IMG/VR virus record: IMGVR_UViG_2681813135_000006
From: a virus
Lineage: Duplodnaviria; Heunggongvirae; Uroviricota; Caudoviricetes
Reading direction: 5' to 3' (one strand)
Length of the DNA stretch: 18,486 nucleotides
Part shown: positions 4,810 to 17,296 of the stretch, one piece after another
Layout of the letters: every line of letters begins with the position of its first letter
Numbering within the stretch: position 1 is the stretch's first letter
The notes under the pieces: generated by a model
Database searches by the model: none
Told to the model about the DNA's origin: nothing
Seen by the model: the letters and a program-made list of their open reading frames with translations, nothing else
Translations under genes and position numbers: made by a program

Positions 4810-4871
4810 TACCTATGCGCGGAAATGATCAACGTTTTAAGAGCACAAATTGTTAATTTTCTGTCAGTTGT

Positions 4872-4899
4872 AAAAAAAGAAAACCCGCCGTAGCGGGTT
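4872..4899 (-). terminator. Rho-independent terminator on the minus strand
   Basis: Minus-strand RNA AACCCGC-UACG-GCGGGUU (perfect 7-bp stem) followed by UUCUUUUUUUU. Confidence 0.7.
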
Positions 4900-5262
4900 G
4901 AATTAGCAGTGTTATATTAAGCGGCAATTTCTTTCTGCCGGCACAATCCCGAGAGATTCGCCCTCTGTATCGCATCATCAATGAGCACCTGTATGACCAT
5001 GAGGCAAAGCGTTATCCAACTTGCATTCATCTTTTTCAATCAGCAAAGGAGTGGTTAGTGCTGTGAGTGGGCTTTGTTCACTTCATGGTAGATAAATCAG
5101 CTATGGATAAGTGATAAGAGGTGAAATCAATCCGAATTAACAACCTGAAGCACATTAATCGGAACACAGATATTAAAATCCTAAAGTCTAGTAACAAATA
5201 GCCGATATGAGATATTGCTTATCAGTTTAAAAATCATCTATTGAAAAAATGGGGGGGAGGCG

Positions 5263-5826
5263 TTGAAGCGAGTAGAGCGCGATTTTATCTGTCTGTTTAA
5301 TTGTGTGTGGTATCAAGATTTCCCTGTGTTCAAAGGTGAATATATCAACCGTTCCAACTGGACCATTCATGTTGGCCTGGTCATGCGCGAGTGTGCAAAG
5401 TTAATGGGCGCAAGAACATTTTTTGAACAAGGCGGGCGTACCGATGCGGTCCTACAATATCCAGACAATCAAATTTTAACCTATGTTGAGTGGGAGTATA
5501 ATCAGGCAGACAGAGATAGCGTTAACGAGTTAGACAAACTGCTTGAAAAAAACGACAAGTGCTATTTCTCCACATTCATCTCATATTGTCAGCATGAAAA
5601 CATCAATATTGTTATTGAAAAAGCAAGTAGAATATGGAGTGAAGCAAGCAGGCCTTTGATTTTTTTTCTTATCACCTATGAGCCTCAAACGAAAAAACGC
5701 CGCCATTTTTTAGAACTCAGAACTTATTTTTTCTCAAACGGCAAAAGAAAACTAGTTCGCAAACAACCTGCGCTTCCATGGGATATTGAGCAACGAAAAT
5801 ACAATGTCGAAGAAGATGCAGGATAG
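5263..5826 (+). CDS. Hypothetical 187-aa protein encoded in an AT-rich island on the opposite strand to the flanking phage operon (candidate moron/accessory gene)
   Basis: TTG start at 5263 immediately after a very strong SD (GGGGGGGAGG at 5251-5260). Visibly AT-rich coding sequence. No TM segment or family recognised. Confidence 0.6.
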   Translation: MKRVERDFICLFNCVWYQDFPVFKGEYINRSNWTIHVGLVMRECAKLMGARTFFEQGGRTDAVLQYPDNQILTYVEWEYNQADRDSVNELDKLLEKNDKCYFSTFISYCQHENINIVIEKASRIWSEASRPLIFFLITYEPQTKKRRHFLELRTYFFSNGKRKLVRKQPALPWDIEQRKYNVEEDAG

Positions 5827-6049
5827 AAGAGACATAAGGTTTTCACGACAGTCTCGTTCCGAGCCCTAACTAAAATATTCTGTTCGGAGCAACCAAATAG
5901 CTCTGGCTTTGCTGTGACCATGTTCGCGGTACCAACGCCTCTCTAGGTCCGCTTCTCGCTCATGGTGGACCAAAATCAAATCTAAAATGACGTGGCTAAG
6001 CGGGAGTACATAGTGAATGACAGGATGCTCCGGGCAGCACCATACTAAT

Positions 6050-6247
6050 TCAGTTCCCGTCAGAGGTAGGCGTTGCTTCATGATGGGATGAGCGCTCCCT
6101 CCAGACAATCCATGCGACAGCCGCCTCCCATGATATATATCCATTACCGCCATTTTTCGCTCTGCGGAGATTAACTGCATCACCAAACCTTTCAATGATG
6201 AATTTTTCAAATTCTATGCGTTTTTCTTCGTCGATTGTTGAATCCAT
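6050..6247 (-). CDS. Hypothetical small acidic protein (65 aa); may be the 5' part of a frameshifted gene continuing in another frame to 5866
   Basis: ATG at 6247 preceded by GGGGAAGG. The ORF-track entry 5866..6210 overlaps it in a second frame. Confidence 0.35.
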   Translation of the reverse strand: MDSTIDEEKRIEFEKFIIERFGDAVNLRRAKNGGNGYISWEAAVAWIVWRERSSHHEATPTSDGN

Positions 6248-6464
6248 ACCTTCCCCAGAAGAGTCCTACGAATCGCTCTTATTGCATAAAAAATAGCATA
6301 TACAATAGAGAGTGAAAAACCGACGTAGCGGGTTAACTTTATGTTACTCATGAGTCTTGTCTCGCTGCGACTTAAAAGCGGAACATTCTCGCGCAAGTTG
6401 CGTTGCTAAAGCTACGGGGTTGAATGGCTCTCCATGCCCATTTAAGAAGGCATGCGGTGTGTAG

Positions 6465-6493
6465 TTGAACGTTATTTAAAACACAGATAGAAT
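6465..6493 (+). promoter_or_regulatory. Putative sigma70 promoter for the secreted-protein gene
   Basis: -35 TTGAAC (6465-6470), 17-bp spacer, -10 TAGAAT (6488-6493), about 30 nt upstream of the ATG at 6527. Confidence 0.35.
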
Positions 6494-6526
6494 CAAGAAA
6501 AATCCTAAATAAATGGAATATTGTTT

Positions 6527-6907
6527 ATGGCTAAGAAAATCGCATTACTGGGCTTTTCTGCTCTTTTTGTTGCAAGTGTTGCTTTTGCTGAAACGACAAG
6601 TAACTGGGTTGAGGTTACTACAGCTGATGATGGCATTTTTTCAGCAAAAAAAGGCACATTTAGAAATGTAAAAGGTGATTCATCTGCCTTGTTCATGTAT
6701 CAAACAAAAAATAAAAAAGTAGAGTACTACAAAGTTAGTATTAAAGATGCCGACTGTGATAGTGGATATGGGGAGATAAGATTCTTCTATATGGATGGGA
6801 AATTAGCTTTCAAAGGTGATTATGTTGCTGATGGGAACAGTGTTGGCGCAGGTATTGGTGATTTTATGTGTGGAGTCAGAATTGGACTTAACACACAAAA
6901 AAGTTAA
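6527..6907 (+). CDS. Secreted/periplasmic protein of unknown function (126 aa, Sec signal peptide, 2 Cys)
   Basis: From ATG 6527: MAKKIALLGFSALFVASVAFA followed by ETT, a typical signal peptide with an AXA cleavage motif. Mature part is Gly/Asp/Lys-rich with two Cys. AT-rich; the TTG at 6521 in the ORF track is probably not the start. Confidence 0.7.
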   Translation: MAKKIALLGFSALFVASVAFAETTSNWVEVTTADDGIFSAKKGTFRNVKGDSSALFMYQTKNKKVEYYKVSIKDADCDSGYGEIRFFYMDGKLAFKGDYVADGNSVGAGIGDFMCGVRIGLNTQKS

Positions 6908-7321
6908 ATGAGGGGCATTTGTTAAAAAACAATAGCCCCACATTAGATCAATATTGGCTCCGGCATTTCTGGATAAAAGCTTCTATGCTACGGCGCTCAT
7001 AGCGAACAATCTTAGCGCTGAACTTTACACGGGGCCAATGTAGACCGGTGTCGGTGTTCTGTATTCCATTTACATAATGTTTTTTGCGTAATTCCCAGCT
7101 TCTGGCATACCTCGCCCGGAGTGAGGAGATCATCAGGTTGCTCAGTCATGTTATGCCTCGCTGTTATCTGGGGTGATGATTAGCAGCTTCCAGATGGCTG
7201 AGACATACATAGCCTGATGTTTCGCATCGACTAGGGCATTATGCATGTCACCTTCAAACGGCATGTCCCGAGTTCTCCCTTTTCGCCGCTTTCGCGTCGC
7301 ATATTCTCCAAACGGTATTTA

Positions 7322-7879
7322 TCAATCATTACTGTTATCCTCGCAGTAGTAGTGCCGTCCCTCTGGGTCAGTAGATACATGTCCGCAGATATCGCATTCA
7401 ATTCCAGGAAGCACCGATTCTGACTGCGCTTTGATATGCAGTCGCGGTTCACCGTCTTTCGGCTCTGGCCACTGGCGGTTTTTGTTAACCGCCAGCTTTT
7501 CTACCATCGCCAGGGTAATCTGCTTATCACTGATACCGGCACGACGTTGCGCATCCCATAACAGGAATTGCATGTCAGCCCATTCGCTCATCTCGTCTGG
7601 TTCCGCAGCAGCCTCGATAGCTTCTTTGGAAAGGTGCTTCAGCGGACCAACTGGACCGACATCGCCGAATGTTTCATCTGACCATGCTGCATGTTCACAG
7701 CGTACCTGCTCACGGGCTATCGACTCCAGAACCCCATCAATCACCTTCACTGCATCAGCCATTGCGTAGCCGAGATTACCGCCGTCGCTTTGTGCTGCTG
7801 CTTTGCTGAGTATTTCGCGTATCTGGTGCAAGCGATCAAGTGATACAGGACCGTGCGCCGGGTGGTTGTTAGTTGTCAT
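7322..7879 (-). CDS. DUF550-like prophage protein (dATP/dGTP pyrophosphohydrolase-like; tentative)
   Basis: 185-aa ORF with ATG at 7879; about 4 nt after the stop of the upstream small gene. Family by recalled similarity to conserved lambdoid prophage proteins. Confidence 0.6.
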   Translation of the reverse strand: MTTNNHPAHGPVSLDRLHQIREILSKAAAQSDGGNLGYAMADAVKVIDGVLESIAREQVRCEHAAWSDETFGDVGPVGPLKHLSKEAIEAAAEPDEMSEWADMQFLLWDAQRRAGISDKQITLAMVEKLAVNKNRQWPEPKDGEPRLHIKAQSESVLPGIECDICGHVSTDPEGRHYYCEDNSND

Positions 7880-7882
7880 GGG

Positions 7883-8083
7883 TTAGTCCTCTACCTTGTT
7901 TCCGCAATGCGGGCAGTAATTGAACTTATGGGCGAATCCAGGATGCGGAACGGCAAAGCGTTTGGTTTTCTCGTTCCAGTCAGCAATTACGATTTCAAAA
8001 TTTACGACCGCATTAGCCCAGTCACTGGAAAGAACTGGCTGCGACCCAATCAGGCCGACTATACAGCGATTACATTTTTCCAC
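7883..8083 (-). CDS. Small zinc-ribbon protein (CxxC...CxxC), hypothetical
   Basis: GTG start at 8083; CNRC near the N-terminus and CPHC near the C-terminus; tightly packed in the operon. Confidence 0.5.
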   Translation of the reverse strand: MEKCNRCIVGLIGSQPVLSSDWANAVVNFEIVIADWNEKTKRFAVPHPGFAHKFNYCPHCGNKVED

Positions 8084-8087
8084 TGAC

Positions 8088-8282
8088 TCACACCCCCTTC
8101 ACGCCAATGCCAGCAGTAAATCGCGACGGTGACCAATCGCAATATGTGTTCGACTCCGTGTGTCCAAAAATTGCTTTACAACGATGGATATGGTGGCAAT
8201 TACCACATGTTATGCCAGCCGGTAATCGCATCTTGTCGGGATCGGCTGGGTCATAATTCAACGCCAGTTTTTCGGTTGTCAT
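8088..8282 (-). CDS. Small Cys/His-rich hypothetical protein (64 aa)
   Basis: ATG at 8282 overlaps the upstream TGA (ATGA); SD GGGGAGG 8 nt upstream; CGNCHHIHRC motif. Confidence 0.5.
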   Translation of the reverse strand: MTTEKLALNYDPADPDKMRLPAGITCGNCHHIHRCKAIFGHTESNTYCDWSPSRFTAGIGVKGV

Positions 8283-8617
8283 GCTGGCATCCTCCCCACG
8301 ATATCTATAACCCGACGCATAACCGCACTTCCCCGAAAATCTGCTGGTAACTCAATCAGAGGCTTACTCGAACCGTATGAGAATCGTTGGAGATCGAAAT
8401 CAATTACAGCCTTTGGGTCCCTGAACAAATCTAGACGACCGTAACGAATGAGTTCGCCGCGTTCGGCTGCTACGCGGAAATACTTCTCAGCAGTCTGACG
8501 ATGCAGCGACAACATCTGTGATGCCTCGCTAACGGTTAAGCGTCCACGGATTTTCACCTCTTCGATGATCACCCGGATAAGTGCCGCCTGCTCTTCTGGT
8601 GTATTTGGTCTTGGCAT
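8279..8617 (-). CDS. Hypothetical HTH-containing protein immediately downstream of the O-like gene
   Basis: ATG at 8617, 2 nt after the O-like TAA, with GGGGG SD; helix-turn-helix-like stretch LTVSEASQMLSLHRQTAEKYFRVAAERGELIRYGR. Confidence 0.6.
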   Translation of the reverse strand: MPRPNTPEEQAALIRVIIEEVKIRGRLTVSEASQMLSLHRQTAEKYFRVAAERGELIRYGRLDLFRDPKAVIDFDLQRFSYGSSKPLIELPADFRGSAVMRRVIDIVGRMPA

Positions 8618-8619
8618 GC

Positions 8620-9531
8620 TTACCCCCTGAATCCGGGTGGGATTGTTTTGTCTGGCTCAGAAATGCGGTTCACATCCCTGCCCGTTTTGCGAGCGTTGAG
8701 AGCGAACTTCGGTTTAAACAGTCCCTGGTACCCGTTGGCGATACTGGTGTTGATCACATCAACGGGGTCATGCCCAGCGTCCAGGCAAGCCTTGAGCAAC
8801 TTGAATGCTTTGGTGACCGTCATTTCGGTCTTGATGGCTTTGCCAGACTGTTGGCGGTAGGCCACCCACTCACTCCAGGACACAGAATCAAGCCACTCAG
8901 GAACGGGAATCGTCAGCGGGTCAAACTTACCCTTCCCCTTTGGGGGATTAGAGGGGGTTAGATCTGTATTTATATTTGTATTTGGAAGAATGTCTTTGGT
9001 GTTCCCTGTTTTCAGGGATACCTCTCCCTGTTTTTGGGGATGGTTATCCCCGTTTTCAGGGATGATTGAAGGGGTAAAATTGCTATCCCTGAATTCAGGG
9101 ATGGTAATAACCCATGTGACAACTTCAGCAGCAGGAAACACCGCTGGACACTTCATGCAATTTGGCTTGGTATACGCCCATTTATCCAGGCTGGTATTAA
9201 TCCCTATGTATCTGGTTTGCCCAATGCGGCGCAGGATGATGATGTTCCGATAGGCAAGGCTCAACACGGCTTCAGAGACGTGTTTCACCTTCAGCGTCGT
9301 TTTATCTGCAATGAGGCTATTGGCGATGCGGTCAGAACTCTTAGACCAGCCATAGGTCAGACGAACGATAGCATTCAGCACCCGGAACTCGCGCCCGGAT
9401 AGTTCGACGATACACAGGGCATCCTGAATCTGGTTGGCCAGGCGCAAATAGCCTTTCTCCAGTTCAGCCATGCTGCTCTCCTGTTTCCCCTGCTGTGTGG
9501 GGAATTTGAATATTTCAGCGGTATTTGACAT
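8620..9531 (-). CDS. Lambda O-like replication initiator; start re-called to ATG at 9531
   Basis: N-terminus MSNTAEIFKFPTQQ...EKGYLRLAN...REFRVLNAIVRLTYGWSKSSDRIANS parallels lambda O (MTNTAKILNF...DGYARLSN...RQFKVLLAILRKTYGWNKPMDRITDS) by recall. Iterons and an AT-rich tract lie inside the gene. SD GGAGAA 5 nt upstream of the ATG. Confidence 0.85.
   Translation of the reverse strand: MSNTAEIFKFPTQQGKQESSMAELEKGYLRLANQIQDALCIVELSGREFRVLNAIVRLTYGWSKSSDRIANSLIADKTTLKVKHVSEAVLSLAYRNIIILRRIGQTRYIGINTSLDKWAYTKPNCMKCPAVFPAAEVVTWVITIPEFRDSNFTPSIIPENGDNHPQKQGEVSLKTGNTKDILPNTNINTDLTPSNPPKGKGKFDPLTIPVPEWLDSVSWSEWVAYRQQSGKAIKTEMTVTKAFKLLKACLDAGHDPVDVINTSIANGYQGLFKPKFALNARKTGRDVNRISEPDKTIPPGFRG
9003..9105. 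repeat. Replication origin iterons: four roughly 18-19 bp palindromic repeats (TCCCTG...CAGGGAT type) inside the O-like gene, with an AT-rich tract at about 8961-8990
   Basis: tccctgttttcagggata (9003), tccctgtttttggggatgg (9025), tccccgttttcagggatga (9047), tccctgaattcagggatgg (9087). Spacing is 22, 22 and 40 bp. Resembles lambda ori iterons, with the AT-rich region downstream in the direction of O transcription. Confidence 0.7.
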
Positions 9532-9615
9532 ACTGTTCTCCGCAATTACGCACAGTTTTTGCACCTGAAAGCCGTTGGTGTTCGAGCACCGCGGCTTTCG
9601 CCATTTCTGAGCCCG

Positions 9616-10173
9616 TCATAGCGCACCACCCAGCATCGTTGTAACCATCGCCATAATGGGCGCCACAGAATCAGGTCCGTCCAGGTAGAGCTTGGCTACG
9701 ATGCTCTCGCTGATTTCCTTCATCCGTTCGTGTCTGGGGGCTTTGAGGACGACAGCCTGTATCGCCTCAGCGTCTTCTTTCACCGACCTGGCGACACGAA
9801 CCGCAAAGCAGTCGTGCTTAATCACGCGATCCCGGTACGCCAGCGGCAGAACCGAAATTATTACCGGCGCCAGCTGCTCGACGTTCGCCCGGTAGGCCGG
9901 TGATTTCTCGTGGTTGTCCAGCCAGCGAAACAGCTTCACGTTCCACACATCGGCGCTGCCGGTCATGTCAATGCTGTCAAGCTCGGCCTGTTCGGCAGCC
10001 TCTTTAATCGCCAGAGCGACCGCCACGCGGCCCTCTGCCGCCGCCCAGGCGCGGACGGCAGAACAGATAGCCCGGTGATCGACCGGCTGGCCTTCAGCCT
10101 CACTGTGTTGATACTGGAATTTCAGGTGCTCTGATGGCGCTCTGTTATTCTGTTGAAAAGAAAGTGTTTGCAT
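9616..10173 (-). CDS. YdaT-like/CII-position regulatory protein (185 aa)
   Basis: ATG at 10173 with AGGAG SD. Directly downstream of the Cro/YdaS-like gene. The motif LAPVIISVLPLAYRDRV resembles the recalled Rac YdaT; family is tentative. Confidence 0.55.
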   Translation of the reverse strand: MQTLSFQQNNRAPSEHLKFQYQHSEAEGQPVDHRAICSAVRAWAAAEGRVAVALAIKEAAEQAELDSIDMTGSADVWNVKLFRWLDNHEKSPAYRANVEQLAPVIISVLPLAYRDRVIKHDCFAVRVARSVKEDAEAIQAVVLKAPRHERMKEISESIVAKLYLDGPDSVAPIMAMVTTMLGGAL

Positions 10174-10184
10174 TGTCAGTGCTC

Positions 10185-10403
10185 CTACTTTGGTAATCCG
10201 TCAGTGGGATTTGGATAGAGATCAGGGCGCAGCTCGTGGGGGGTTACGCCTGTCATTTTGAAAATCGGGAAGATATAGCTTGGCGGGACGATCCCTTGGT
10301 CACGATTCTTCCAATGACTTACAGACATACTCGTCACACCAAGCGCGATGCTGAGCTTTCTGGCAGAGCCAGCGGCTTTAATTGCTTTATCGAGTGCGGA
10401 CAT
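10185..10403 (-). CDS. Cro/YdaS-like HTH regulator (72 aa), divergent from the repressor
   Basis: ATG at 10403 with AGGAG 6 nt upstream. HTH-like KAAGSARKLSIALGVTSMSVSHWKN. Position and size match cro/ydaS in an immunity region. Confidence 0.75.
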   Translation of the reverse strand: MSALDKAIKAAGSARKLSIALGVTSMSVSHWKNRDQGIVPPSYIFPIFKMTGVTPHELRPDLYPNPTDGLPK

Positions 10404-10505
10404 GTGCTTCTCCTGCTTATTGATAGCAGAAGTAAACCACAGATTTATACTTCATGCAAACTTTGGATTTATTGCGTGCATAAACCAAATATTTACAATG
10501 ACCAT
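10404..10505. promoter_or_regulatory. Divergent immunity-region promoter/operator segment between the Cro-like and repressor genes
   Basis: AT-rich 102-bp intergenic region. For the repressor: -35 TTGCGT (10472-10477), -10 TACAAT (10494-10499), with no SD before the ATG at 10506 (leaderless-like). Pseudo-palindromes such as TTATTGCGTGCATAA are candidate operators. Hexamer assignments are inference. Confidence 0.5.
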
Positions 10506-10895
10506 ATGAGAAAAGAAGAACCCAACCTCGTTCTGGTGGAGCGCCTTACTGAGATCACTGATCGCGGCGTTACCAAAGCAGACATGGCAAGAATAGCTGG
10601 AGTCACCCCTCAGGCCGTAAACGGCTGGTTCAAAAAAGGCGTGATTAGTAAGAAATCGGCACTGGCCATAGCCGACGCTGTTGGTATTTCTGTCGCCTGG
10701 CTACTCGGTGAAGACGTTGGGGAGAAAGACGGTCTCAAACCGGACGAACAGCGTTTGCTCGAGCTCTACCGCCAGTTACCGGAAGAAGAGCAGCAGAACA
10801 TGCTCCGCATTTTTGCGCTTCGCCTGAAAGAGTTAGATGAGCTGTACGAGAAGTACATGAAGGGTCGGATTCGATCGCAAGGTGAGCAAACCTAA
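10506..10895 (+). CDS. Prophage repressor, XRE-type HTH, 129 aa, without an S24 peptidase (autocleavage) domain; RacR/CI-like role
   Basis: ATG at 10506. HTH TKADMARIAGVTPQAVNGWFKKG; the C-terminal half is a charged helical region (LLELYRQLPEEEQQNMLRIFALRLKELDELYEKYMK). Divergent from the Cro-like gene. The ORF-track N-terminal extension (from 10236) crosses the promoter region and was rejected. Confidence 0.8.
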   Translation: MRKEEPNLVLVERLTEITDRGVTKADMARIAGVTPQAVNGWFKKGVISKKSALAIADAVGISVAWLLGEDVGEKDGLKPDEQRLLELYRQLPEEEQQNMLRIFALRLKELDELYEKYMKGRIRSQGEQT

Positions 10896-10959
10896 ACCAG
10901 TAGTATCTAATTCCATGTAATAAAAATATTTCAAGATTTAATATCTTCTGGAGGATTCG

Positions 10960-11241
10960 GTGTCTAAAGAAACAACCGTCGAACTTATGCATCTTAATGA
11001 TGTAATCGAAGCGAAAAATTTCATCGAGACCAATGCTGACGGTGTCGTAACAATCGGCACACAAAATGCCGGTTACGAAGTTTACAATTTTGTGTTCCTG
11101 AATAGCAGCCCGATCATCGGTACGGATAATGCGGATATAGTCGTCAAGGGCATGCAGCGAACCAAAGTTGTGTCTGTGACTTTAAGCAAACAAAAGGCTT
11201 ATGATTTTTATCAATCCTTAAAAAGTATGTTTGAGGAATAA
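10960..11241 (+). CDS. Hypothetical 93-aa soluble protein, first gene of an AT-rich pair downstream of the repressor
   Basis: GTG at 10960 with strong SD GGAGGA 4 nt upstream; no TM segment; no family recognised. Confidence 0.65.
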   Translation: MSKETTVELMHLNDVIEAKNFIETNADGVVTIGTQNAGYEVYNFVFLNSSPIIGTDNADIVVKGMQRTKVVSVTLSKQKAYDFYQSLKSMFEE

Positions 11242-11247
11242 TAATTG

Positions 11248-11769
11248 ATGGATGCGGCTCAATCATCTCTTGGTGAAGGGAAGTTATTGATTGCATATTC
11301 AGACCATAGCGGAGCTACAGTAGGCTTAGAGTTTTCATCAGTAGCTTCGAGCCAAGCAACCTTCCTTATGGGTGCTTGTAGTTTTGCCGCTTCGGATAAA
11401 CAAAAACGGATTGTCACATCAGTTGCTATGGATGATACTGAAATCATTCATACGTCAACTGAAGATGGAGGTGACGACATGGAAAAGAGATTGGCTATTC
11501 TTGAGGTTGAAGTTGCCCACATCAAGAAAGATGTTGCCGAGATAAAAAACACAGTTTCAAAAGTTGATACGACAGTGAATTCACTGGACAAAAATATGGC
11601 TGTAGTTTTGGAGAGGCTGTCTAGTATCAAAGAGTCTGTAGACAAAAAGCCCTCATCAGACACAGTGGACAAGAAAATCTCTGATGCTAAATTGGCGATT
11701 CTCTTAGGTGTCCCTGCGATTATCGCCATTGGTACAGGGCTGTACAAAGCTTTTATGCACTTCTTTTAG
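11248..11769 (+). CDS. Hypothetical 173-aa tail-anchored membrane protein with a central coiled-coil-like region
   Basis: ATG at 11248 (SD GAGGAA upstream), 6 nt after the previous stop. Heptad-like segment EKRLAILEVEVAHIKKDVAEIKNTVSKVDTTVNSLDKNMAVVLERLSSIKESV, then a single C-terminal hydrophobic helix LAILLGVPAIIAIGTGLY. AT-rich. A strong terminator follows. Confidence 0.7.
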   Translation: MDAAQSSLGEGKLLIAYSDHSGATVGLEFSSVASSQATFLMGACSFAASDKQKRIVTSVAMDDTEIIHTSTEDGGDDMEKRLAILEVEVAHIKKDVAEIKNTVSKVDTTVNSLDKNMAVVLERLSSIKESVDKKPSSDTVDKKISDAKLAILLGVPAIIAIGTGLYKAFMHFF

Positions 11770-11841
11770 TCAGATTTGGTCAATACGCCTGAGTTATAAG
11801 GCTCTCAGCTACTAACTCTGTCGCCTTCCCCGAACCTTCTC

Positions 11842-11869
11842 ATCCCGACCACGCGTCGGGATTTTTTTT
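11842..11869 (+). terminator. Rho-independent terminator ending the repressor-side operon
   Basis: ATCCCGAC-cacgc-GTCGGGAT (8-bp perfect stem) followed by T8. Confidence 0.8.
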
Positions 11870-11943
11870 GCCTGCGATTCTGCAGACGTGTCACAAAACC
11901 CAGCCACATAAACCTCAGATTTACAATTAACACTAACCTTAAG

Positions 11944-11972
11944 TTGACACATATATAAACCAGTGATTTAAT
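11944..11972 (+). promoter_or_regulatory. Putative sigma70 promoter (early-left-like) driving the kil/recE/recT side
   Basis: -35 TTGACA (11944-11949), 17-bp spacer, -10 TTTAAT (11967-11972). An ATTTACAAT motif just upstream (11919-11927) is also present in the immunity region (10491-10499). Confidence 0.45.
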
Positions 11973-12224
11973 CTAACTCACCAAGACGCACCACGAACCA
12001 CCCAGGCATGGAGCCCACGAAGTAGCCGTCCGGGGCATACGAAAACCGGAATGAGGTGGTGATATTAACGCGCAGTAGGTTTGAAACGTTCCGCCAGCCT
12101 GGCGACAAGGGCAAACACAGAAGTGAGCTTCGCGGTGGTGAATTGCAGAGTTAAAACGCTCAACTGTGAAGATCAGCGTCACGGCACCACCAGCGAAGTT
12201 CACTCAGCAATAGTGGAGAACATC

Positions 12225-12431
12225 ATGGTTCATCAGCACTACGGTACACAGACAGTAAACCGCGGCGCAGTTCAGCCGGGGATGCTTGTAAAACACAAAG
12301 ACTCAACCTGGACCGCATCTGCTAACGCACGCGGTCGCCTGTATCTTCACCGTGGCATCGAACGTACCTACACCAAAGATTTGCTGGTTGAGGTTTATCT
12401 AAACGGTTTAGGACATGGCCTTAGCCATTAA
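12225..12431 (+). CDS. Kil-like small protein (KilR-family, FtsZ-inhibitor type), 68 aa
   Basis: ATG at 12225 with SD GGAG 4 nt upstream. MVHQHYGTQ...ASANARGRLYLHRG resembles the recalled Rac KilR pattern. The ORF-track entry with a TTG start at 12081 is probably an over-extension. Confidence 0.55.
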   Translation: MVHQHYGTQTVNRGAVQPGMLVKHKDSTWTASANARGRLYLHRGIERTYTKDLLVEVYLNGLGHGLSH

Positions 12432-12442
12432 CGGAGTGAGTT

Positions 12443-12604
12443 ATGCAGGAGAAAAAATGCGCGTACTGCCGCAAGCCGATCAAGCAAGGGAAGGAAGTTA
12501 AAAACGAACTGCTCTTTATCCACGGCACGCAGTTGAAACGCGAGCAACGTGATTACTGTTCAGTACGTTGCGCTTCGTTCGACCAGATGGCCCACGAAGC
12601 ATAA
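12443..12604 (+). CDS. YdaE-like small zinc-ribbon protein, 53 aa (not in the ORF track)
   Basis: ATG at 12443 with SD GGAG 6 nt upstream. MQEKKCAYCRKPIKQGKEVKNELLFIHGTQLKREQRDYCSVRCASFDQMAHEA has paired Cys residues (CxxC...CxxxC). Same position as ydaE between kilR and recE in Rac. Confidence 0.55.
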   Translation: MQEKKCAYCRKPIKQGKEVKNELLFIHGTQLKREQRDYCSVRCASFDQMAHEA

Positions 12605-12742
12605 CGAAAACCCCGCGCAAGGCGAGATTCACGTCCGGTGCCACCGACCAAAGTTACACCGGAATTTATACCAAACCAAAAAACATCCAATGGGCGCTAT
12701 CTCTGGCCCGGGGATTCTAACACTCAAAAAAGAGGATCTCAC

Positions 12743-15652
12743 ATGGAATTTTTCCATCTGATAAAAGCCAGTCAGAAGTCTGGCAAGAAAGATGCAGTGA
12801 TTTGGTTCACTGCGAAAAGTGTAGCGCGCGCCAATCTCCAACTCGATGTGGCACTGGAAGAAGCCGGAATTGAAGAAACTGGCCGCGGTAAAGATTATGC
12901 CAAACCAATCCGCACCGATTTCCCGGTATATGACGACCTGCCGGAAGAAGGCGCAGTGGATTACACCTGGTGCAAACGCTACGAACTGCAGAACGATGAC
13001 CGCACCTGGATGCCAAAAGTCACAGCTGAAAACTCTGACGAGAAAACGGCTCAGACCGTTGATAGTCACATAACTACTGAGTCAACGCTGCCAGAAACCG
13101 CTGGCATCACGCTGGACGAACACGACGACGACTCAACCCTCTACCCGGTAGTGCAGATGCCGTTTCGTAAGCAACTGCTTTCCCAGTTCACCGCCGACGA
13201 ACTGCGCCACCACGTAACCCGCGAAGAGTACGAAGCTATCGGCGCGCTGGAGATGGACACTGATAACAGTTACGTCCAGAACTTGCTGTTAGCTGCTGAG
13301 AACTGCCCGGACGTGAAGGGTTACGACACCAAAGACCTGTGGCGCTACACCGATGCCATTCGCAAAGTGTTCAGCCAGGACAAGCGTCACGAACTCGCGC
13401 TGGTACTCCGTTTCACCAGAATGTGGGCGGCGACTGATTACATTGACCGTGGCATCCTGGCGCGTGAATGGGCTGCCGGTAATCACATCAGTAGTGTTCA
13501 GCGTACTGATTCCGGAACCAATGCCAACGGCGGTTACGTCACTGACCGTGGACCTGATGCATACCATACCCTTGACACTCTCGATTTAGAGATTGCATGT
13601 GCCCTTCTGCCTATGGACTTCAACCACTTCGAGATCCCGGGCAGCATTCTTCGTCGCGCTAAAGAAATCGTGACCAAAAAAGAAGAACCGTGGAAATCAT
13701 GGAGCAGCATTCTGCGCAATCAACCCGGCGTTCTTGGCGTTAACCGCACAGCTATTTTTAACCTGATACGTATCGCGCCGGAAAATATTCATCTAACTCC
13801 TGTCGCTCACCTGGAGTTTGTTAACCGGACCATGACTGCTGCGTTTAATGCTGCTGTTGAGTTATTGCCATTGCATGAAGCTGAGCCCGCAACACAGGAA
13901 ATTCCCCAACCTGAAAGTAAGGAGTCTCCACGCAAACCCTTCTGCACTCACGAAGAGAACCTGCAACGCGTACGTGAAGAAGAAGCACGCCGCCGCGCAG
14001 AGGAAGCGACAGCACAACCACATAAAGCCGAACAAGAACTGGTTAAAAATGTCGGCAACGGAATATTCGATGTTACGGCTTTACTGCAGAACTCAGCAAC
14101 TCATGGCACGAAACAGGCTACGGAAACCACCAGCAATGTGCAGGTTCAAGAAACTGTCAGTGATGAAAAAAATGTTGGTAATGAAATGCAGTCAGGCGAA
14201 AGCAGTCTGGAAACTGGTGAAGAGTCACATCCCGGCCAGCAGGCCGATGTAAACCAAAATACGGAATCTGTCGCTCAAAATAGCGATTCTGTAAACCAGA
14301 CTGAACCAGTTTTGGCACACGTCGAGCCAGAGGCGCAATCTGACGAACAAGCTGTTTTTTACCCCGATTACTTCGAGCCTGGGCGCTATGAAGGTCTGCC
14401 GAACGAGGTTTACCACGCTGCCAACGGCATCAGTTCCACCCAGGTAAAAGATGCGCGCGTTTCGCTGATGTACTTCAATGCGCGCCACGTTGAGAAAACC
14501 ATCGTCAAAGAGCGCTCCTCAGTGCTGGACATGGGAAACCTGGTACATGCGCTGGCGTTGCAGCCAGAACAGCTCGATGAAGAATTTAGCGTTGAACCCG
14601 TAATTCCGGAAGGTGCATTTACCACCACGGCAACGATCCGCGCGTTTATTGATGAGTACAACGCCAGCCTGCCAGCGCAACTGAGCGCAGACGATATCAA
14701 AGCTTTGCTGGATGAATACAACGCCACCCTGCCAGCGCTGGTGCCGCTGGGCGCTAGCCTGGATGAAACGGCGCAGAACTATATGGCGCTGCCAGCTGAA
14801 TTCCAACGTATCGATGCAGATCAGAAGAAGACAGCAACAGCAATGAAGGCGTGCATCAAAGAGTACAACGCCACCCTGCCAGCGCAGATTAAAACCAGCG
14901 GCAGCCGCGACGCACTACTCGAACAACTTGCGATTATCAATCCTGACCTGGTCGCGCAGGAAGCTCAGAAGCTGCAACCGCTGAAAGTCTCTGGCACGAA
15001 GGCCGATCTGATTCAGGCCGTGAAGGCAGTCAAACCAGATGCAGTGTTCGCCGACGAGCTGCTCGATGCGTGGCGCAACAACCCGGAAGGGAAAGTGCTG
15101 GTTACCCACCAGCAACTTGCCACCGCGCAGGCAATTCAGTCAGCACTGCTCTCGCACCCGACCGCAGGCATGCTGCTAACCCACCCGAGCCGCGCCGTTG
15201 AGGTGAGCTACTTTGGCTTTGACGAGGAGACGGGACTGGAAGTTCGTGTGCGCCCTGACCTTGAGATCGACCTAGACGGCGTGCGTATCGGTGCTGACCT
15301 GAAAACCATCAGCATGTGGAATGTTAAGCAGGAAAGCCTGCGCGCCAGGCTACACCGGGAAATTATTGAACGTGATTATCACCTGAGCGCGGCTATGTAC
15401 TGCGAAACCGCAGCGCTGGATCAGTTCTTCTGGATTTTCGTCAACAAAGACGAGAACTACCACTGGATCGCCATCATCGAGGCATCCGCTGAACTACTGG
15501 AGCTGGGTATGCTCGAGTACCGCAAAGCGATGCGCAATATCGCAACCGGATTCGACACAGGTGAATGGCCAGCGCCAATCACTGCTGACTACACCGACGA
15601 ACTGAACGACTTCGACCTGCGCCGCCTTGAAGCGCTGCGTACTCAGGCATAA
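12743..15652 (+). CDS. recE: RecE-like exonuclease (exodeoxyribonuclease VIII family), 969 aa; start re-called to ATG at 12743
   Basis: N-terminus MEFFHLIKASQKSGKKDAVIWF...FPVYDDLPEEGAVDYTWCKRYEL parallels recalled E. coli RecE. Long acidic/Gln-rich middle region. C-terminal region (YFGFDEETGLEVRVRPDLEIDLDGVRIGADLKTI...) is consistent with the RecE nuclease domain. SD AGAGGA 6 nt upstream of the ATG. Confidence 0.85.
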   Translation: MEFFHLIKASQKSGKKDAVIWFTAKSVARANLQLDVALEEAGIEETGRGKDYAKPIRTDFPVYDDLPEEGAVDYTWCKRYELQNDDRTWMPKVTAENSDEKTAQTVDSHITTESTLPETAGITLDEHDDDSTLYPVVQMPFRKQLLSQFTADELRHHVTREEYEAIGALEMDTDNSYVQNLLLAAENCPDVKGYDTKDLWRYTDAIRKVFSQDKRHELALVLRFTRMWAATDYIDRGILAREWAAGNHISSVQRTDSGTNANGGYVTDRGPDAYHTLDTLDLEIACALLPMDFNHFEIPGSILRRAKEIVTKKEEPWKSWSSILRNQPGVLGVNRTAIFNLIRIAPENIHLTPVAHLEFVNRTMTAAFNAAVELLPLHEAEPATQEIPQPESKESPRKPFCTHEENLQRVREEEARRRAEEATAQPHKAEQELVKNVGNGIFDVTALLQNSATHGTKQATETTSNVQVQETVSDEKNVGNEMQSGESSLETGEESHPGQQADVNQNTESVAQNSDSVNQTEPVLAHVEPEAQSDEQAVFYPDYFEPGRYEGLPNEVYHAANGISSTQVKDARVSLMYFNARHVEKTIVKERSSVLDMGNLVHALALQPEQLDEEFSVEPVIPEGAFTTTATIRAFIDEYNASLPAQLSADDIKALLDEYNATLPALVPLGASLDETAQNYMALPAEFQRIDADQKKTATAMKACIKEYNATLPAQIKTSGSRDALLEQLAIINPDLVAQEAQKLQPLKVSGTKADLIQAVKAVKPDAVFADELLDAWRNNPEGKVLVTHQQLATAQAIQSALLSHPTAGMLLTHPSRAVEVSYFGFDEETGLEVRVRPDLEIDLDGVRIGADLKTISMWNVKQESLRARLHREIIERDYHLSAAMYCETAALDQFFWIFVNKDENYHWIAIIEASAELLELGMLEYRKAMRNIATGFDTGEWPAPITADYTDELNDFDLRRLEALRTQA

Positions 15653-15657
15653 GGGGA

Positions 15658-16776
15658 ATGATGATGGAAAACACGAATATCGTAACCGCTGAACAGCAGA
15701 CTCCAAACACGATCTCAGCCAGCAATGCCATTTTCAACGTGCAGGCTTTAACCCAGCTTCAGTCTGTCGCCGGGTTGATGGCACAGGCAGCCGTAACGGT
15801 GCCTGAGCACCTCCGCGGCAATCCGGCAGACTGCATGGCCATCATCATGCAGGCGATGCAGTGGGGTATGAACCCTTACGCCGTGGCGCAAAAGACGCAC
15901 CTGGTTAACGGTGTCCTGGGATACGAAGCGCAACTGGTTAATGCGGTGATCTCCAGCTCAAACGCCATCGTTGGCCGCTTTCACTATGAGTACGAGGGCG
16001 ACTGGTCGAAATGTGCCAGCAGCCGCGAGATAACCGTTAAAAAGCCTGCGAAAGGTGGCGGGACGTACGACAAGAAAGAAATGGTACGCGGTTGGGAAAG
16101 TGCTGATGAACAAGGACTGTCGGTACGGGTAGGTGCCGTTATTCGCGGTGAAAGTGATATCACCTGGGGAGAGCCTGTTTTCCTCTCCAGCGTAATCACA
16201 CGTAATTCTCCACTTTGGGTATCAAACCCGAAACAGCAGATCGCTTATCTGGCACTCAAATACTGGGCGCGCCTGTATTGCCCTGCAGTTGTTCTTGGTG
16301 TGTACACCCCTGATGAGATTGAACAGCGCACAGAAAAAGAGATCAACCCAACGCCGCAACGCGTTAGCCTGGCTGATATCTCAGGTGACACCGTCACAAC
16401 CACGCAAAGCGCACAGGAATCGTCGGTAAATGTCGACTCTCTTGCCGATGATTTCCGCGAACGCATCGAATCTGCTCAGGACGTGGATAGCGCCAAATCG
16501 CTGCGTGCCGACATTGAAACGGCGAAAGCTACGCTGGGATCCGCACTATTCACCGAGCTGAAAAACAAAGCCGTAAAGCGTTATTACCTAGTGGATGCAC
16601 GCAACAAGGTTGAGGAGGCTATTAAATCCCTGCCCCAGCCCGACGAGCCGCATGCATCCGAACGGTTCGCTGAAGCCGAGCGCATGCTTGCATCTTCAAA
16701 GCGTCACTTAGGCGATGAACTGCACGATCAATTCAGCATCACCCTGGCGGATATGAAACCGGAATACGTGGCCTGA
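15658..16776 (+). CDS. ssDNA annealing protein of the Redbeta/RecT family, with a long C-terminal extension (372 aa if from the first ATG)
   Basis: Begins 6 nt after the recE-like stop. ADCMAIIMQAMQWGMNPYAVAQKTHLV and SPLWVSNPKQQIAYLALKYWARLYCPAVVLGVY parallel lambda Beta motifs (QYGLNPWTKEIYAF; PKRMLRHKAMIQCARLAFGFAGIY) by recall. Three consecutive ATGs at 15658-15666; the exact start is uncertain. Confidence 0.75.
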   Translation: MMMENTNIVTAEQQTPNTISASNAIFNVQALTQLQSVAGLMAQAAVTVPEHLRGNPADCMAIIMQAMQWGMNPYAVAQKTHLVNGVLGYEAQLVNAVISSSNAIVGRFHYEYEGDWSKCASSREITVKKPAKGGGTYDKKEMVRGWESADEQGLSVRVGAVIRGESDITWGEPVFLSSVITRNSPLWVSNPKQQIAYLALKYWARLYCPAVVLGVYTPDEIEQRTEKEINPTPQRVSLADISGDTVTTTQSAQESSVNVDSLADDFRERIESAQDVDSAKSLRADIETAKATLGSALFTELKNKAVKRYYLVDARNKVEEAIKSLPQPDEPHASERFAEAERMLASSKRHLGDELHDQFSITLADMKPEYVA

Positions 16777-16814
16777 CGAGACCGGGAGGGGTAACCCTCC
16801 CTCAAGGAGATTAT

Positions 16815-17057
16815 ATGCGACTGATCAATCGAGGAAGTAAGCAATCACCTTTAGCTCGCCAAGCATGCGACATCGCGCTGGCAGCTCACTTGCAAACATA
16901 TGGCGACTATGGGCGAAGCAAGATGAAAGAGACTTATACGGTGAAGGTTGAAGGCGTGAAAGTCTGGGTGGAGGTGGTGAACCGAAAGGCGAGCTACGTG
17001 GCCACAGCGATGACCGGCATGCGCCGTCTCCGCTCCCTGCCCGGGCAGGTTGGTTGA
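16815..17057 (+). CDS. Hypothetical 80-aa protein
   Basis: ATG at 16815 with strong SD AAGGAGA 4 nt upstream, preceded by a GGGAGGG-gtaa-CCCTCCC stem-loop (16784-16801). Confidence 0.5.
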   Translation: MRLINRGSKQSPLARQACDIALAAHLQTYGDYGRSKMKETYTVKVEGVKVWVEVVNRKASYVATAMTGMRRLRSLPGQVG

Positions 17058-17098
17058 AAAAGATTTTGAATGGCCCGAACGGGCAACTGGAGAGAGCT

Positions 17099-17296
17099 AT
17101 GGATGATATTTTGGTAACGTCAGACCTGACCAGTCGCTACAAAATTTCACGCAAAACCCTTTGGTCATGGCAAAGTGCAGACACAATGCCTCGGGGCTTC
17201 GTATGCCCGTTCCCACCCCCTGACTGGCCCGGCAACCCTAACCGCTGGCGCTCTGAGTCAATCAAAGAGTGGGAGGATAAAAAGAAGATAAATTAA
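17099..17296 (+). CDS. AlpA-family small DNA-binding protein (excisionase/regulator-like), about 65 aa
   Basis: From ATG 17099 (SD GGAGAG): [34 protein letters not shown]...[13 protein letters not shown] resembles AlpA-type HTH proteins by recall. The TTG at 17054 in the ORF track is probably not the start. Confidence 0.65.

What the first reader, a model, noticed from the sequence alone, without database searches (positions are those of the whole stretch)
11248..11769. 173-aa protein with N-terminal globular part, central coiled coil and a single C-terminal TM anchor (holin/XhlA-like architecture) outside the lysis cassette
The heptad-like charged stretch followed by one C-terminal hydrophobic helix is the architecture of small membrane-disrupting proteins. 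Here it is in the lysogeny module rather than next to the endolysin, which fits an abortive-infection effector or exclusion protein more than a lysis gene.
Basis: inference. Interest (0 to 1): 0.6.

Follow-up and report, generated by a model that had tools for sequence, protein, structure and literature searches.

The report
Tail-anchored coiled-coil protein beside prophage repressor
This is a real, uncharacterised prophage gene pair (a small soluble protein plus a membrane-anchored coiled-coil protein) in the slot where phage lambda keeps its rexAB exclusion genes; it is probably a new kind of phage-exclusion module, but no function has been shown.

Summary
Window 11248-11769 (+) encodes a 173-aa protein with four parts:
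- a small beta-beta-alpha N-domain (residues 10-47)
- a Gly/Asp-rich linker
- eight perfect heptads (78-133)
- one hydrophobic helix at the extreme C-terminus (148-170)

It is translationally coupled to the 93-aa gene upstream. Both lie between a DicA-like prophage repressor and a strong intrinsic terminator, which is the rexAB slot of lambdoid phages.

Relatives at 55% identity occupy the same slot in phage HK544 and in the Stx1 prophage of E. coli O157:H7. Proteomics papers detected both O157 homologues in lysogens.

The coiled-coil/anchor module defines a family of about 327 clusters. It is restricted to Enterobacterales and has no Pfam, NCBIfam or PADLOC assignment.

The upstream partner and the N-terminal region swap together among at least ten unrelated types. 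A conserved internal Shine-Dalgarno sequence plus ATG at Met78 suggests a second, 96-aa isoform.

It is not a holin and not an XhlA family member. It is a tail-anchored protein with its bulk in the cytoplasm.

The best reading is a lysogen-expressed two-component exclusion or abortive-infection module. That rests on position, architecture and modularity only. Interest is moderate.

The parts
10476..10895 (+). Prophage repressor (139 aa, HTH only, DicA-like, no S24 peptidase domain). It is the first gene of the inferred operon. It faces a divergent YdaS-like cro (10185-10403, -) and a YdaT/CII-like gene (9616-10173, -).
   Evidence: Pfam HTH_3 E 1.5e-6 and Phage_CI_repr E 8.6e-4. NCBIfam DicA subfamily E 1.9e-8, below its cut-off. 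The RefSeq start is taken from the near-identical region of L001.
10960..11241 (+). 93-aa soluble partner protein. It has a GTG start with a GGAGG Shine-Dalgarno sequence and a tandem TAA TAA stop 6 nt before the next gene's ATG.
   Evidence: phrog_12039 (unknown function) E 1.6e-47, full length. There are 19 clusters of homologues, nearly all 93 aa, with no Pfam domain and an invariant ETNADGVVTI motif. No Pfam, NCBIfam or PADLOC hit. The AlphaFold2 model is poor at pLDDT 44. The O157 homologue ECs2991 was detected by proteomics (PMC3936929).
11248..11769 (+). 173-aa tail-anchored coiled-coil protein (the finding itself).
   Evidence: phrog_12602 covers residues 1-147 and phrog_3556 covers 63-173; both are of unknown function. 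The exact protein is seen on at least 1000 public contigs.
11275..11388 (+). N-terminal beta-hairpin plus helix domain (residues 10-47). It is the variable part and co-varies with the partner gene.
   Evidence: AlphaFold2 pLDDT 84-92. Partner cluster and N-region cluster correspond one-to-one or one-to-few in 88 loci.
11389..11478 (+). Disordered linker ending in the conserved DGGDD motif.
   Evidence: pLDDT below 50 for residues 62-73. G74 is nearly invariant.
11467..11481 (+). Internal Shine-Dalgarno sequence GGAGGT (11467-11472), then 6 nt, then ATG of Met78 (11479-11481). This is a candidate internal start for a 96-aa isoform made of coiled coil plus anchor only.
   Evidence: 30 of 36 distinct family linkers have an SD core of at least 5 nt placed 4-10 nt before this conserved ATG. 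Synonymous-codon resampling gives 14.4 +/- 2.7, and 0 of 2000 resamples reach 30. None of 111 other in-frame ATGs has one. Annotation pipelines often call the short form (a 96-aa entry on 280 contigs). Locus L092 has the full 170-aa ORF open although only 93 aa were called.
11479..11646 (+). Eight-heptad coiled coil (residues 78-133). Its first two heptads (ME.R.A.LE.DV.HIK) are the most conserved part of the family.
   Evidence: heptads; E79, R81, L85, E86, V89 and I92 nearly invariant. The best PDB profile matches are trimeric coiled coils: Lpp at E 3.8e-4, an autotransporter stalk and reovirus sigma-1.
11644..11655 (+). KKPS hinge between the coiled coil and the juxtamembrane helix.
   Evidence: K134, P135 and S136 are nearly invariant across all anchor types. 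The helix breaks here in the AlphaFold2 model.
11689..11757 (+). C-terminal membrane anchor (residues 148-170, KLAILLGVPAIIAIGTGLYKAFM), followed by 3 residues.
   Evidence: Kyte-Doolittle maximum 1.96. At least four unrelated anchor sequences occur in the family, always terminal. The O157 homologue Z3360 was listed among candidate lipoproteins in a proteomic survey of membrane protein fate (APEXi 858; PMC3210124).
11842..11872 (+). Intrinsic terminator (8-bp stem, 5 G-C pairs, T7 run), 73 nt after the stop codon. It is the inferred end of the repressor-partner-anchor transcript.
   Evidence: The equivalent site in VT1-Sakai is annotated 'putative rho-independent terminator for pRM transcript'.

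Best explanation
The 93-aa gene and the 173-aa gene form a two-gene accessory ('moron') cassette. It is inferred to be co-transcribed with the prophage repressor during lysogeny.

**Inferred structure.**
- The 173-aa protein inserts post-translationally into the inner membrane by its C-terminal helix.
- It projects a parallel coiled coil, probably trimeric and about 8 nm long, into the cytoplasm.
- Each chain carries, on a flexible Gly-rich tether, a small variable domain that binds the co-encoded soluble partner.

**Proposed function.** I propose it is a phage-exclusion module analogous to RexA/RexB. The partner plus N-domain would give specificity or restraint. The conserved coiled coil and anchor would be the membrane effector. 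On infection by another phage, the effector would compromise the membrane or a membrane-linked step and abort that infection. A shorter isoform started at Met78 may co-assemble with the full-length form and set the threshold.

**Shown here:** gene reality, architecture, slot, modular co-variation and the internal SD signal.

**From papers:** homologues of both proteins were detected in O157 proteomes.

**Inferred:** co-transcription, topology, oligomeric state, partner binding, and any exclusion activity.
For: **Slot.** The order is repressor, partner, anchor protein, terminator, then the kil/recE side.
- The same order occurs in HK544, a phage with lambda-like PRM, cI and PL annotation, and in VT1-Sakai.
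- It also occurs in Klebsiella, Enterobacter, Salmonella and E. coli prophages with unrelated repressors.
- 68 of 88 loci have a repressor-like gene directly upstream.
- Owen et al. describe the cI-N interval as a common moron site that also holds rexAB and bstA (PMC7067206).

**Moron features.**
- GC falls to about 40%, against 50-60% in the flanks.
- Sister prophages with the same flanking genes carry HicAB plus a small membrane protein, or an unknown 467-aa protein, in the slot.
- A variant cassette sits between the major tail and tape-measure genes in a Serratia prophage. That is another typical site for accessory-gene insertion.

**Expression in lysogens.** ECs2991 and Z3360 were detected by proteomics. 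Z3360 was listed among candidate membrane lipoproteins.

**Modularity typical of sensor/effector systems.**
- Partner type and N-region type co-vary: cluster pairs (0,0) in 24 loci, (1,1) in 21, (2,{2,5,7}) in 14, (3,{3,9}) in 9 and (4,4) in 5.
- No N-region cluster has two different partner clusters.
- The coiled-coil start and the KKPS hinge stay conserved.
- A mosaic joint lies inside the gene at about 11500-11530.

**Tight coupling.** Gaps between partner stop and anchor-gene start, or overlaps, are small.
Against: - No experiment or paper links any family member to phage resistance.
- No PADLOC model matches beyond coiled-coil noise.
- Co-variation of partner and N-region could partly reflect simple linkage, because recombination joints fall in the conserved coiled-coil DNA.
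- The anchor is only moderately hydrophobic and contains Pro and three Gly. It may be just an anchor rather than a pore.
- Pantoea chromosomes carry partner-less copies next to an AraC-like gene, so a prophage context is not obligatory.
- The partner model was too poor to test binding.
- The internal-start statistics use related sequences, and Gly-rich coding gives a high baseline.
Confidence: 0.45

Rival explanations
1. Non-lethal superinfection exclusion. The anchored protein sits at the cytoplasmic face of the inner membrane and blocks genome entry of incoming phages. It might do this by occupying the sugar-transporter route used by lambdoid siphophages, without killing the cell.
For: - It is a lysogen-expressed membrane protein in classic moron sites, including a variant between the major tail and tape-measure genes.
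- The HK97 gp15 exclusion moron lies next to the tape-measure gene (my recollection of the literature, not checked here).
- Constitutive expression without obvious toxicity fits a passive blocker.
Against: - Almost nothing of the protein is periplasmic (0-11 residues after the anchor). It could therefore act only from inside or within the bilayer.
- The hypervariable partner and N-region are harder to explain if the target is a conserved host transporter.
Confidence: 0.18
2. A lysogeny or host-physiology factor rather than a defence. One version is a membrane tether that sequesters a host or prophage protein through the partner and N-domain to tune induction, as proposed for the 434 Hex protein (my recollection of the literature, not checked here). 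Another is a stress-related tail-anchored protein of the kind of ElaB/YqjD/YgaM.
For: - The architecture (cytoplasmic coiled coil plus C-terminal anchor) is that of the E. coli tail-anchored proteins.
- The cassette is co-located with the repressor.
- No defence-family signal was found.
Against: - The cassette occurs with cleavable (S24) and non-cleavable repressors alike, and in one subgroup lies in the tail module, far from the repressor.
- No Pfam DUF883 or other family match was found.
- Rapid swapping of partner types suggests an arms race more than housekeeping.
Confidence: 0.2
3. A lysis accessory protein of the XhlA or holin-regulator type that happens to be encoded away from the lysis genes.
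For: - The coiled coil plus C-terminal hydrophobic helix resembles XhlA.
- There are weak hits to PHROG 'hemolysin' families (E 1.4e-5 and 5.7e-3) and to a holin PHROG (E 0.071).
- A possible dual start recalls holin/antiholin pairs.
Against: - The query has no PF10779 hit, and only 1 of 40 members touches it, below the cut-off.
- None of the best 120 of 327 family clusters carries any Pfam domain.
- The gene is never next to an endolysin in the loci examined.
- Its orientation, the terminator and the proteomic detection of homologues point to expression in the lysogen. Constitutive expression would be dangerous for a lysis protein.
Confidence: 0.06
4. Not a functional gene: a chance ORF or a decaying remnant.
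For: - In E. coli KL53 the match is split over two places in the genome.
- In a Symbiopectobacterium genome the gene is broken into two ORFs.
Against: - Homologues at 30-83% identity keep length, heptad register, hinge and terminal anchor.
- The O157 homologues of both proteins were detected by mass spectrometry.
- The exact sequence is on at least 1000 contigs.
Confidence: 0.02

Closest known systems
Lambda RexA/RexB exclusion system
   Same: - Same genomic slot: after the repressor gene, on the same strand, before a terminator and the PL side.
- In HK544, which has lambda-type cI, PRM and PL annotation, the cassette lies between cI and PL.
- Two genes, one soluble and one membrane-bound, expressed in the lysogen.
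   Different: - No sequence relationship was found.
- RexB is a polytopic (four-helix) membrane protein and RexA is about 280 aa (established knowledge). Here the membrane component has a single terminal helix with a long coiled coil, and the soluble component is 93 aa.
- The gene order also differs in size terms: small soluble gene first, anchored gene second.
- No exclusion phenotype is known.
XhlA (Pfam PF10779), lysis accessory protein of Bacillus prophage PBSX
   Same: It is a short protein with an N-terminal coiled coil and one C-terminal hydrophobic helix. There is weak sub-threshold profile similarity over the coiled coil.
   Different: - The Pfam cut-off is not reached.
- The gene is not in a lysis cassette.
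- It carries an extra N-terminal domain and a co-varying partner gene.
- It is found in Enterobacterales rather than Firmicutes.
Prophage two-gene membrane-linked defences of mycobacteriophages (Butters gp30/gp31) and the single membrane-anchored abortive-infection protein PdpSau of S. aureus prophages
   Same: - These are prophage-expressed accessory genes.
- A soluble and a membrane component act together in Butters (PMC7542560).
- A single-helix membrane protein changes membrane polarity and permeability after infection in S. aureus (PMC10127798).
   Different: - No homology was found.
- Butters gp31 is predicted to have transmembrane domains; its helix count was not checked here.
- PdpSau is anchored by an N-terminal helix and is encoded next to the lysis genes.
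- Neither has a long heptad coiled coil or a swappable N-region.
E. coli tail-anchored inner-membrane proteins ElaB/YqjD/YgaM (DUF883)
   Same: They have a cytoplasmic helical region followed by a single C-terminal membrane helix and no signal peptide. Post-translational insertion is therefore expected.
   Different: - There is no Pfam DUF883 match.
- Those proteins are chromosomal stress proteins without a partner gene.
- This family is prophage-borne and modular.
Braun's lipoprotein Lpp and other trimeric parallel coiled coils
   Same: Lpp is the best solved-structure profile match (E 3.8e-4 over 51 residues). Both have beta-branched residues at the a and d positions. Some databases label family members 'Lpp' or 'SlyX'.
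   Different: The similarity is in heptad composition only. There is no signal peptide or lipobox, and the hits to SlyX and LPP are below their Pfam cut-offs. The labels are annotation artefacts.

Membership tests
XhlA (Pfam PF10779) | Profile score at or above the Pfam gathering cut-off (34.7 bits) | tested here: not met
   The query has no hit at E<=0.1. Only 1 of 40 family members hits, at E 0.0033. The cut-off value is shown.
XhlA (Pfam PF10779) | Coiled coil followed by a single C-terminal hydrophobic helix | tested here: met
XhlA / holins | Encoded in the lysis cassette next to the holin or endolysin | tested here: not met
   The gene lies between the repressor and the kil/recE side in the window and in all the lambdoid loci examined.
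Holins | One or more membrane helices with a short, highly charged cytoplasmic C-terminal tail, and homology to a holin family | tested here: not met
   The helix is at the extreme C-terminus with 3-8 mostly hydrophobic residues after it. The only holin hit is phrog_1296 at E 0.071.
RexAB-type exclusion system | Located directly downstream of the repressor gene, same strand, ending at a terminator before PL | tested here: met
RexAB-type exclusion system | Homology to RexA and RexB, with a polytopic RexB | tested here: not met
   No PADLOC, Pfam, NCBIfam or PHROG match to Rex proteins. There is a single hydrophobic segment only.
RexAB-type exclusion system | Excludes superinfecting phage through membrane depolarisation | not testable with these tools
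   This needs infection and membrane-potential assays.
Tail-anchored inner-membrane proteins (class, not a homology family) | A single membrane helix within about 30 residues of the C-terminus, no N-terminal signal peptide, bulk in the cytoplasm | tested here: met
   Hydropathy profile, conserved in 40 of 40 members. The homologue Z3360 was listed among candidate membrane lipoproteins in a proteomic study. The orientation is inferred, not measured.
ElaB/YqjD/YgaM (DUF883) | Pfam DUF883 profile match | tested here: not met
   DUF883 is absent from the hit lists.
Bacterial lipoprotein (suggested for homologue Z3360 in PMC3210124) | Lipobox Cys directly after an N-terminal signal peptide | tested here: not met
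   - The proposed Cys is residue 44, inside the predicted helix 34-47.
- It has no preceding hydrophobic leader.
- It is not conserved in the family.
- The paper itself flags 'no hydrophobic leader sequence'.
SlyX / Lpp (labels given by some databases) | Pfam gathering score | tested here: not met
   SlyX scores 24.5 bits against a cut-off of 30. LPP is matched by 5 of 40 members, all sub-threshold. The labels are seen.

The most novel reading that the evidence does not exclude
This would be a previously unrecognised, modular family of prophage defence systems in Enterobacterales, including the Stx1 prophage of O157:H7.
- **Sensor.** A swappable sensor, made of the soluble partner plus the matching N-terminal region, is tethered by a Gly-rich linker to a conserved effector.
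- **Effector.** The effector is a trimeric, tail-anchored coiled coil.
- **Two isoforms.** The effector gene makes a long and a short isoform from a conserved internal ribosome-binding site.
- **Trigger.** The ratio of the isoforms and the state of the partner would decide when the anchors assemble into a membrane lesion that aborts infection.
Probability: 0.22. Interest if true: 0.8.

Novelty: new variant of a known kind. Interest (0 to 1): 0.55.

Why it matters
- **An unexplained slot.** The interval after the prophage repressor is one of the best-known homes of phage-exclusion genes (rexAB, bstA), yet most of its cargo is unexplained.
- **Reach of the cassette.** It fills that slot in prophages across Escherichia, Salmonella, Klebsiella, Enterobacter, Serratia and Pantoea. 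The partner plus N-module is in 106 of 5426 complete E. coli genomes, including O157:H7 EDL933, whose Stx1 prophage carries the homologues.
- **Expression.** The homologous proteins are made in lysogens.
- **If it is a defence.** It would add a new effector type, a tail-anchored coiled coil. It would also give a compact example of sensor swapping. It could affect phage therapy or typing of these pathogens.
- **A cheap test.** The candidate internal start offers an easy experiment on dual-isoform control outside holins.
- **If it is not a defence.** It is still a rare bacterial tail-anchored protein family with a dedicated partner.

Tried and rejected
**Family searches**
- Pfam, NCBIfam, PADLOC and PHROGs on both proteins returned only unknown-function PHROGs and sub-threshold coiled-coil hits.
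- Pfam, PHROG and PADLOC on nine alternative partner types returned all unknown, one being a Zn-ribbon.

**Structure and sequence comparison**
- PDB search by sequence and by profile found only generic, mostly trimeric coiled coils.
- Foldseek of the model against PDB and BFVD found nothing at E<=0.001.
- AlphaFold2 of the partner gave pLDDT 44, unusable, so no fold search was run on it.
- BLASTP of the partner against the N-domain found no similarity.

**Searches that failed or were empty**
- A locus search with the full diverse alignment failed for lack of a conserved stretch. A narrower alignment worked.
- Rfam and ARAGORN on the window found nothing.

**Literature**
- Searches by locus tags, accessions, rexAB-slot terms, tail-anchored/defence terms and the DefensePredictor supplements found no functional study.

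**Readings rejected**
- Lipoprotein: the Cys is not conserved and there is no leader.
- Holin or XhlA membership.
- SlyX and Lpp labels.
- Stand-alone 93-96-aa 'short genes' as independent evidence. The one locus I re-read (L092) has the full ORF open, with only the internal start called.
Full report
**1. The observation**

The ORF at 11248-11769 (+) translates to 173 aa. Four features were checked.

- **Hydropathy.** There is one strong maximum, at residues 147-165 (Kyte-Doolittle 19-mer mean 1.96), with eight residues after it. Every other window is below 1.0.
- **Heptads.** Residues 78-133 are eight uninterrupted heptads whose 16 a/d positions are all I, L, M or V. None of 20,000 shuffles of the segment reach that occupancy. 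Ten of 20,000 reach the observed 3.5-residue periodicity.
- **Family conservation.** In a 40-member alignment the a/d columns are 0.67-1.00 hydrophobic, all but one at 0.90 or above. Seven members lack exactly one heptad. Every member keeps its hydrophobic maximum at the extreme C-terminus, with 0-11 residues after it.
- **Model.** AlphaFold2 gives a confident beta-hairpin plus helix for residues 10-47 (pLDDT 84-92). It then gives a disordered linker, one long helix 76-132, a break at KKPS, and a final helix 137-172.

No dedicated TM or coiled-coil predictor was available.

**2. Context in the window**

The window is a Rac-like lambdoid prophage of E. coli. In order it carries:

| Window coordinates | Strand | Gene |
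|---|---|---|
| 8620-9564 | - | O-like replication gene |
| 9616-10173 | - | YdaT/CII-like gene |
| 10185-10403 | - | YdaS-like cro |
| 10476-10895 | + | HTH-only, DicA-like repressor |
| 10960-11241 | + | 93-aa gene |
| 11248-11769 | + | 173-aa gene |
| 12081-12431 | + | Kil-like ORF |
| 12638-15652 | + | RecE |
| 15658-16776 | + | RecT |
| 17293-18486 | - | integrase |

- The stretch 10900-11900 is 100% identical in 12 complete E. coli genomes.
- The partner's tandem stop codons lie 6 nt before the ATG.
- The strongest terminator in the region (8-bp stem, T7) lies 73 nt after the stop, at 11842-11872. No comparably strong terminator (at least 8 stem pairs and a long T run) and no promoter-like site was predicted between the repressor and the pair.
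- GC drops to about 40% over the pair, against 50-60% on either side.

This layout matches the lambda cI-rexA-rexB-terminator arrangement. Co-transcription from the repressor promoter is inferred, not shown.

**3. Relatives and their context**

- **HK544 and VT1-Sakai.** tblastn against phage records finds the protein at 55% identity only in HK544 and in the Stx1 phage VT1-Sakai and a close relative.
  - In HK544, whose record annotates lambda-like PRM, cI and PL, the two genes (HK544_041 and HK544_040) lie exactly between cI and PL.
  - In VT1-Sakai the larger gene is H0053. It is followed by a feature annotated 'putative rho-independent terminator for pRM transcript'. The 93-aa gene is present there but unannotated.
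- **Family size.** A full HMMER scan of 1.8 billion representatives gives only 54 hits. A profile of the coiled-coil/anchor module finds 327 clusters at 90% identity. Of the 120 best, nearly all that carry an organism name come from Enterobacterales, all are labelled 'hypothetical', and none has a Pfam domain.
- **Other hosts.** Look-ups of five divergent members from E. coli, Klebsiella, Enterobacter and Salmonella all show the order repressor, small gene, anchored protein, then the kil/gam/recT side. The repressors are unrelated: some have an S24 peptidase domain and some do not.
- **Counts.** Among 88 loci gathered from genomes and viral contigs, 68 have a recognisable repressor directly upstream of the pair.
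- **Exceptions.**
  - A subgroup with a Zn-ribbon partner is inserted between the major tail protein and the tape-measure gene of Serratia-type prophages.
  - Pantoea copies lie next to an AraC-like gene. Some have no partner and some sit beside a second anchored paralogue.
- **Prevalence.** The partner plus N-module occurs in 106 of 5426 complete E. coli genomes. Thirteen carry this allele, and 95 carry an allele at 60-80% identity, about 75% in the O157:H7 and other hits listed. The C-module allele of the window is in 13 genomes. The exact protein is on at least 1000 public contigs.

**4. Modularity**

- **Co-variation.** I clustered the upstream gene products and the regions N-terminal to the conserved helix. 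The correspondence is strict. Cluster pairs are (0,0) in 24 loci, (1,1) in 21, partner 2 with N-regions 2/5/7 in 14, partner 3 with 3/9 in 9, (4,4) in 5 and (6,6) in 3. No N-region type has two partner types.
- **Partner types.** They are unrelated to one another: phrog_12039, phrog_4231, phrog_5893, a Zn-ribbon family phrog_4293, and others. All are of unknown function.
- **Conserved core.** The start of the coiled coil (ME.R.A.LE.DV.HIK) and the KKPS hinge are nearly invariant. At least four unrelated anchor sequences occur.
- **Mosaic joint.** Against HK544 and an Enterobacter locus, nucleotide identity is 53-85% (mostly 62-85%) up to about 11500 and then falls to 30-58%. There is therefore a mosaic joint inside the gene.
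- **Slot as a cargo site.** In two sister prophages that keep the identical cro and YdaT proteins, a (near-)identical O protein and the same right flank, the slot holds other cargo. One has HicAB plus a YoaK-like small membrane protein. The other has an unknown 467-aa protein.

Together these suggest three exchangeable units: partner plus N-region, coiled coil, and anchor. Part of the co-variation could be simple linkage.

**5. A conserved internal start signal**

- The DGGDD linker is encoded as GAT GGA GGT GAC GAC. This places GGAGGT 6 nt before the ATG of Met78, the first residue of the conserved module.
- In 30 of 36 distinct family linkers, an SD core of at least 5 nt lies 4-10 nt before this ATG.
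- Resampling synonymous codons with the genes' own usage gives 14.4 +/- 2.7, with a maximum of 24 in 2000 trials.
- None of 111 other in-frame ATGs has such a site.
- Annotation pipelines frequently call only the short product (96 aa on 280 contigs). In locus L092, where 93 aa were called, the full 170-aa ORF is open.

A second isoform consisting of coiled coil plus anchor is therefore plausible. I put it at roughly 0.5. The caveats are that the sequences are related, and that the signal could be a relic of a fusion onto an ancestral short gene.

**6. Evidence of expression**

- A proteome study of O157:H7 in rumen fluid lists ECs2991, the partner homologue (PMC3936929).
- A proteome survey of EDL933 lists Z3360, the anchored homologue, at APEXi 858 among candidate lipoproteins. 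It notes that the protein has no hydrophobic leader (PMC3210124).
- The lipoprotein guess does not hold. The Cys is residue 44, inside the predicted N-domain helix, and is not conserved. The listing among membrane-attached candidates is, however, what a tail anchor would predict.

**7. What it is not**

- **XhlA.** The query has no hit. One of 40 members hits at E 0.003, below the 34.7-bit cut-off.
- **Holin.** Only phrog_1296 at E 0.071. The gene is never beside an endolysin, and the topology is wrong.
- **RexA/RexB.** No similarity, and one hydrophobic segment rather than several.
- **SlyX and Lpp.** Both are sub-threshold. These labels appear in some databases.
- **Structure searches.** They give nothing specific. 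The profile's best solved matches are trimeric parallel coiled coils: Lpp, an autotransporter stalk and sigma-1. With beta-branched a/d residues, this hints at a trimer. That is inference.

**8. Mechanism**

Most likely (about 0.45), the pair is a lysogen-expressed exclusion module built like RexAB in logic but not in parts.

- The anchored protein oligomerises through the coiled coil at the cytoplasmic face of the inner membrane.
- The partner binds its matching N-region.
- Infection by another phage changes that interaction.
- The conserved coiled coil and anchor then damage the membrane or a membrane-linked step.

Alternatives are:

| Alternative | Probability |
|---|---|
| Non-lethal block to genome entry | about 0.18 |
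| Lysogeny or host-physiology tether | about 0.20 |
| Lysis accessory role | about 0.06 |
| Non-functional ORF | about 0.02 |

None of the functional claims is tested. No paper in the library addresses the family.

**9. Verdict**

It is a new variant of a known kind, namely the two-gene soluble-plus-membrane cargo of the repressor-adjacent slot, with an uncharacterised protein family. Interest is moderate at 0.55. It would be higher if the modular-sensor and dual-isoform reading proves true.

Noticed in passing
window 10476-10895 (+), with 10185-10403 (-) and 9616-10173 (-): The repressor is a short HTH-only, DicA-like protein with no S24 self-cleavage domain. It is paired with YdaS-like and YdaT-like genes. 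Induction of this prophage probably does not work by RecA-stimulated repressor cleavage.
   Followed up: partly
window 10960 vs RefSeq start (L001 12088 = window 10987): RefSeq annotates the partner as 84 aa starting at Met10. Homologues are nearly all 93 aa, and a GGAGG lies 7 nt before the GTG at 10960. The longer form is therefore probably correct.
   Followed up: partly
L090 2518-3907 and L091 2381-3784: Sister prophages keep the identical cro and YdaT proteins, a (near-)identical O protein and the same right flank. In the same slot they carry other cargo. One has a second HTH gene, a YoaK-like small membrane protein, HicA/HicB and a 141-aa unknown. The other has a 467-aa protein with no Pfam or PADLOC match.
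   Followed up: partly
L004 4556-5300 (also L037, L038, L087, L089): A cassette variant with a 119-aa Zn-ribbon partner is inserted between the major tail protein gene and the tape-measure gene of Serratia-type prophages. This is a second classic moron site.
   Followed up: partly
L007 4481-5220; L008 and L010 4974-5276: Pantoea genomes carry the anchored module next to an AraC-like regulator and outside an obvious prophage. It occurs either as a 100-aa form without an N-region or as two tandem anchored paralogues.
   Followed up: no
L011 4800-5347; E. coli KL53 (hits H22, H41): The anchored gene is split into two ORFs in a Symbiopectobacterium genome. In E. coli KL53 the match is divided between two places. 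Both look like inactivated copies.
   Followed up: no
window 1-9500 and 13900-15200 vs L001: The window is mosaic relative to the best-matching genome. Only 9500-13872 (96.5%), 15206-18486 (91%), 3385-4938 (90%) and a 124-bp piece align. The two tRNA genes annotated in that genome have no counterpart here: ARAGORN and Rfam find none in the window.
   Followed up: partly
window 12081-12431 (+): The Kil-like ORF matches phrog_294 only over residues 43-115. The real start is therefore probably the internal ATG near 12225, as in RefSeq's 68-aa call. That leaves about 450 nt of non-coding DNA after the terminator, where the leftward early promoter and operators are expected.
   Followed up: no
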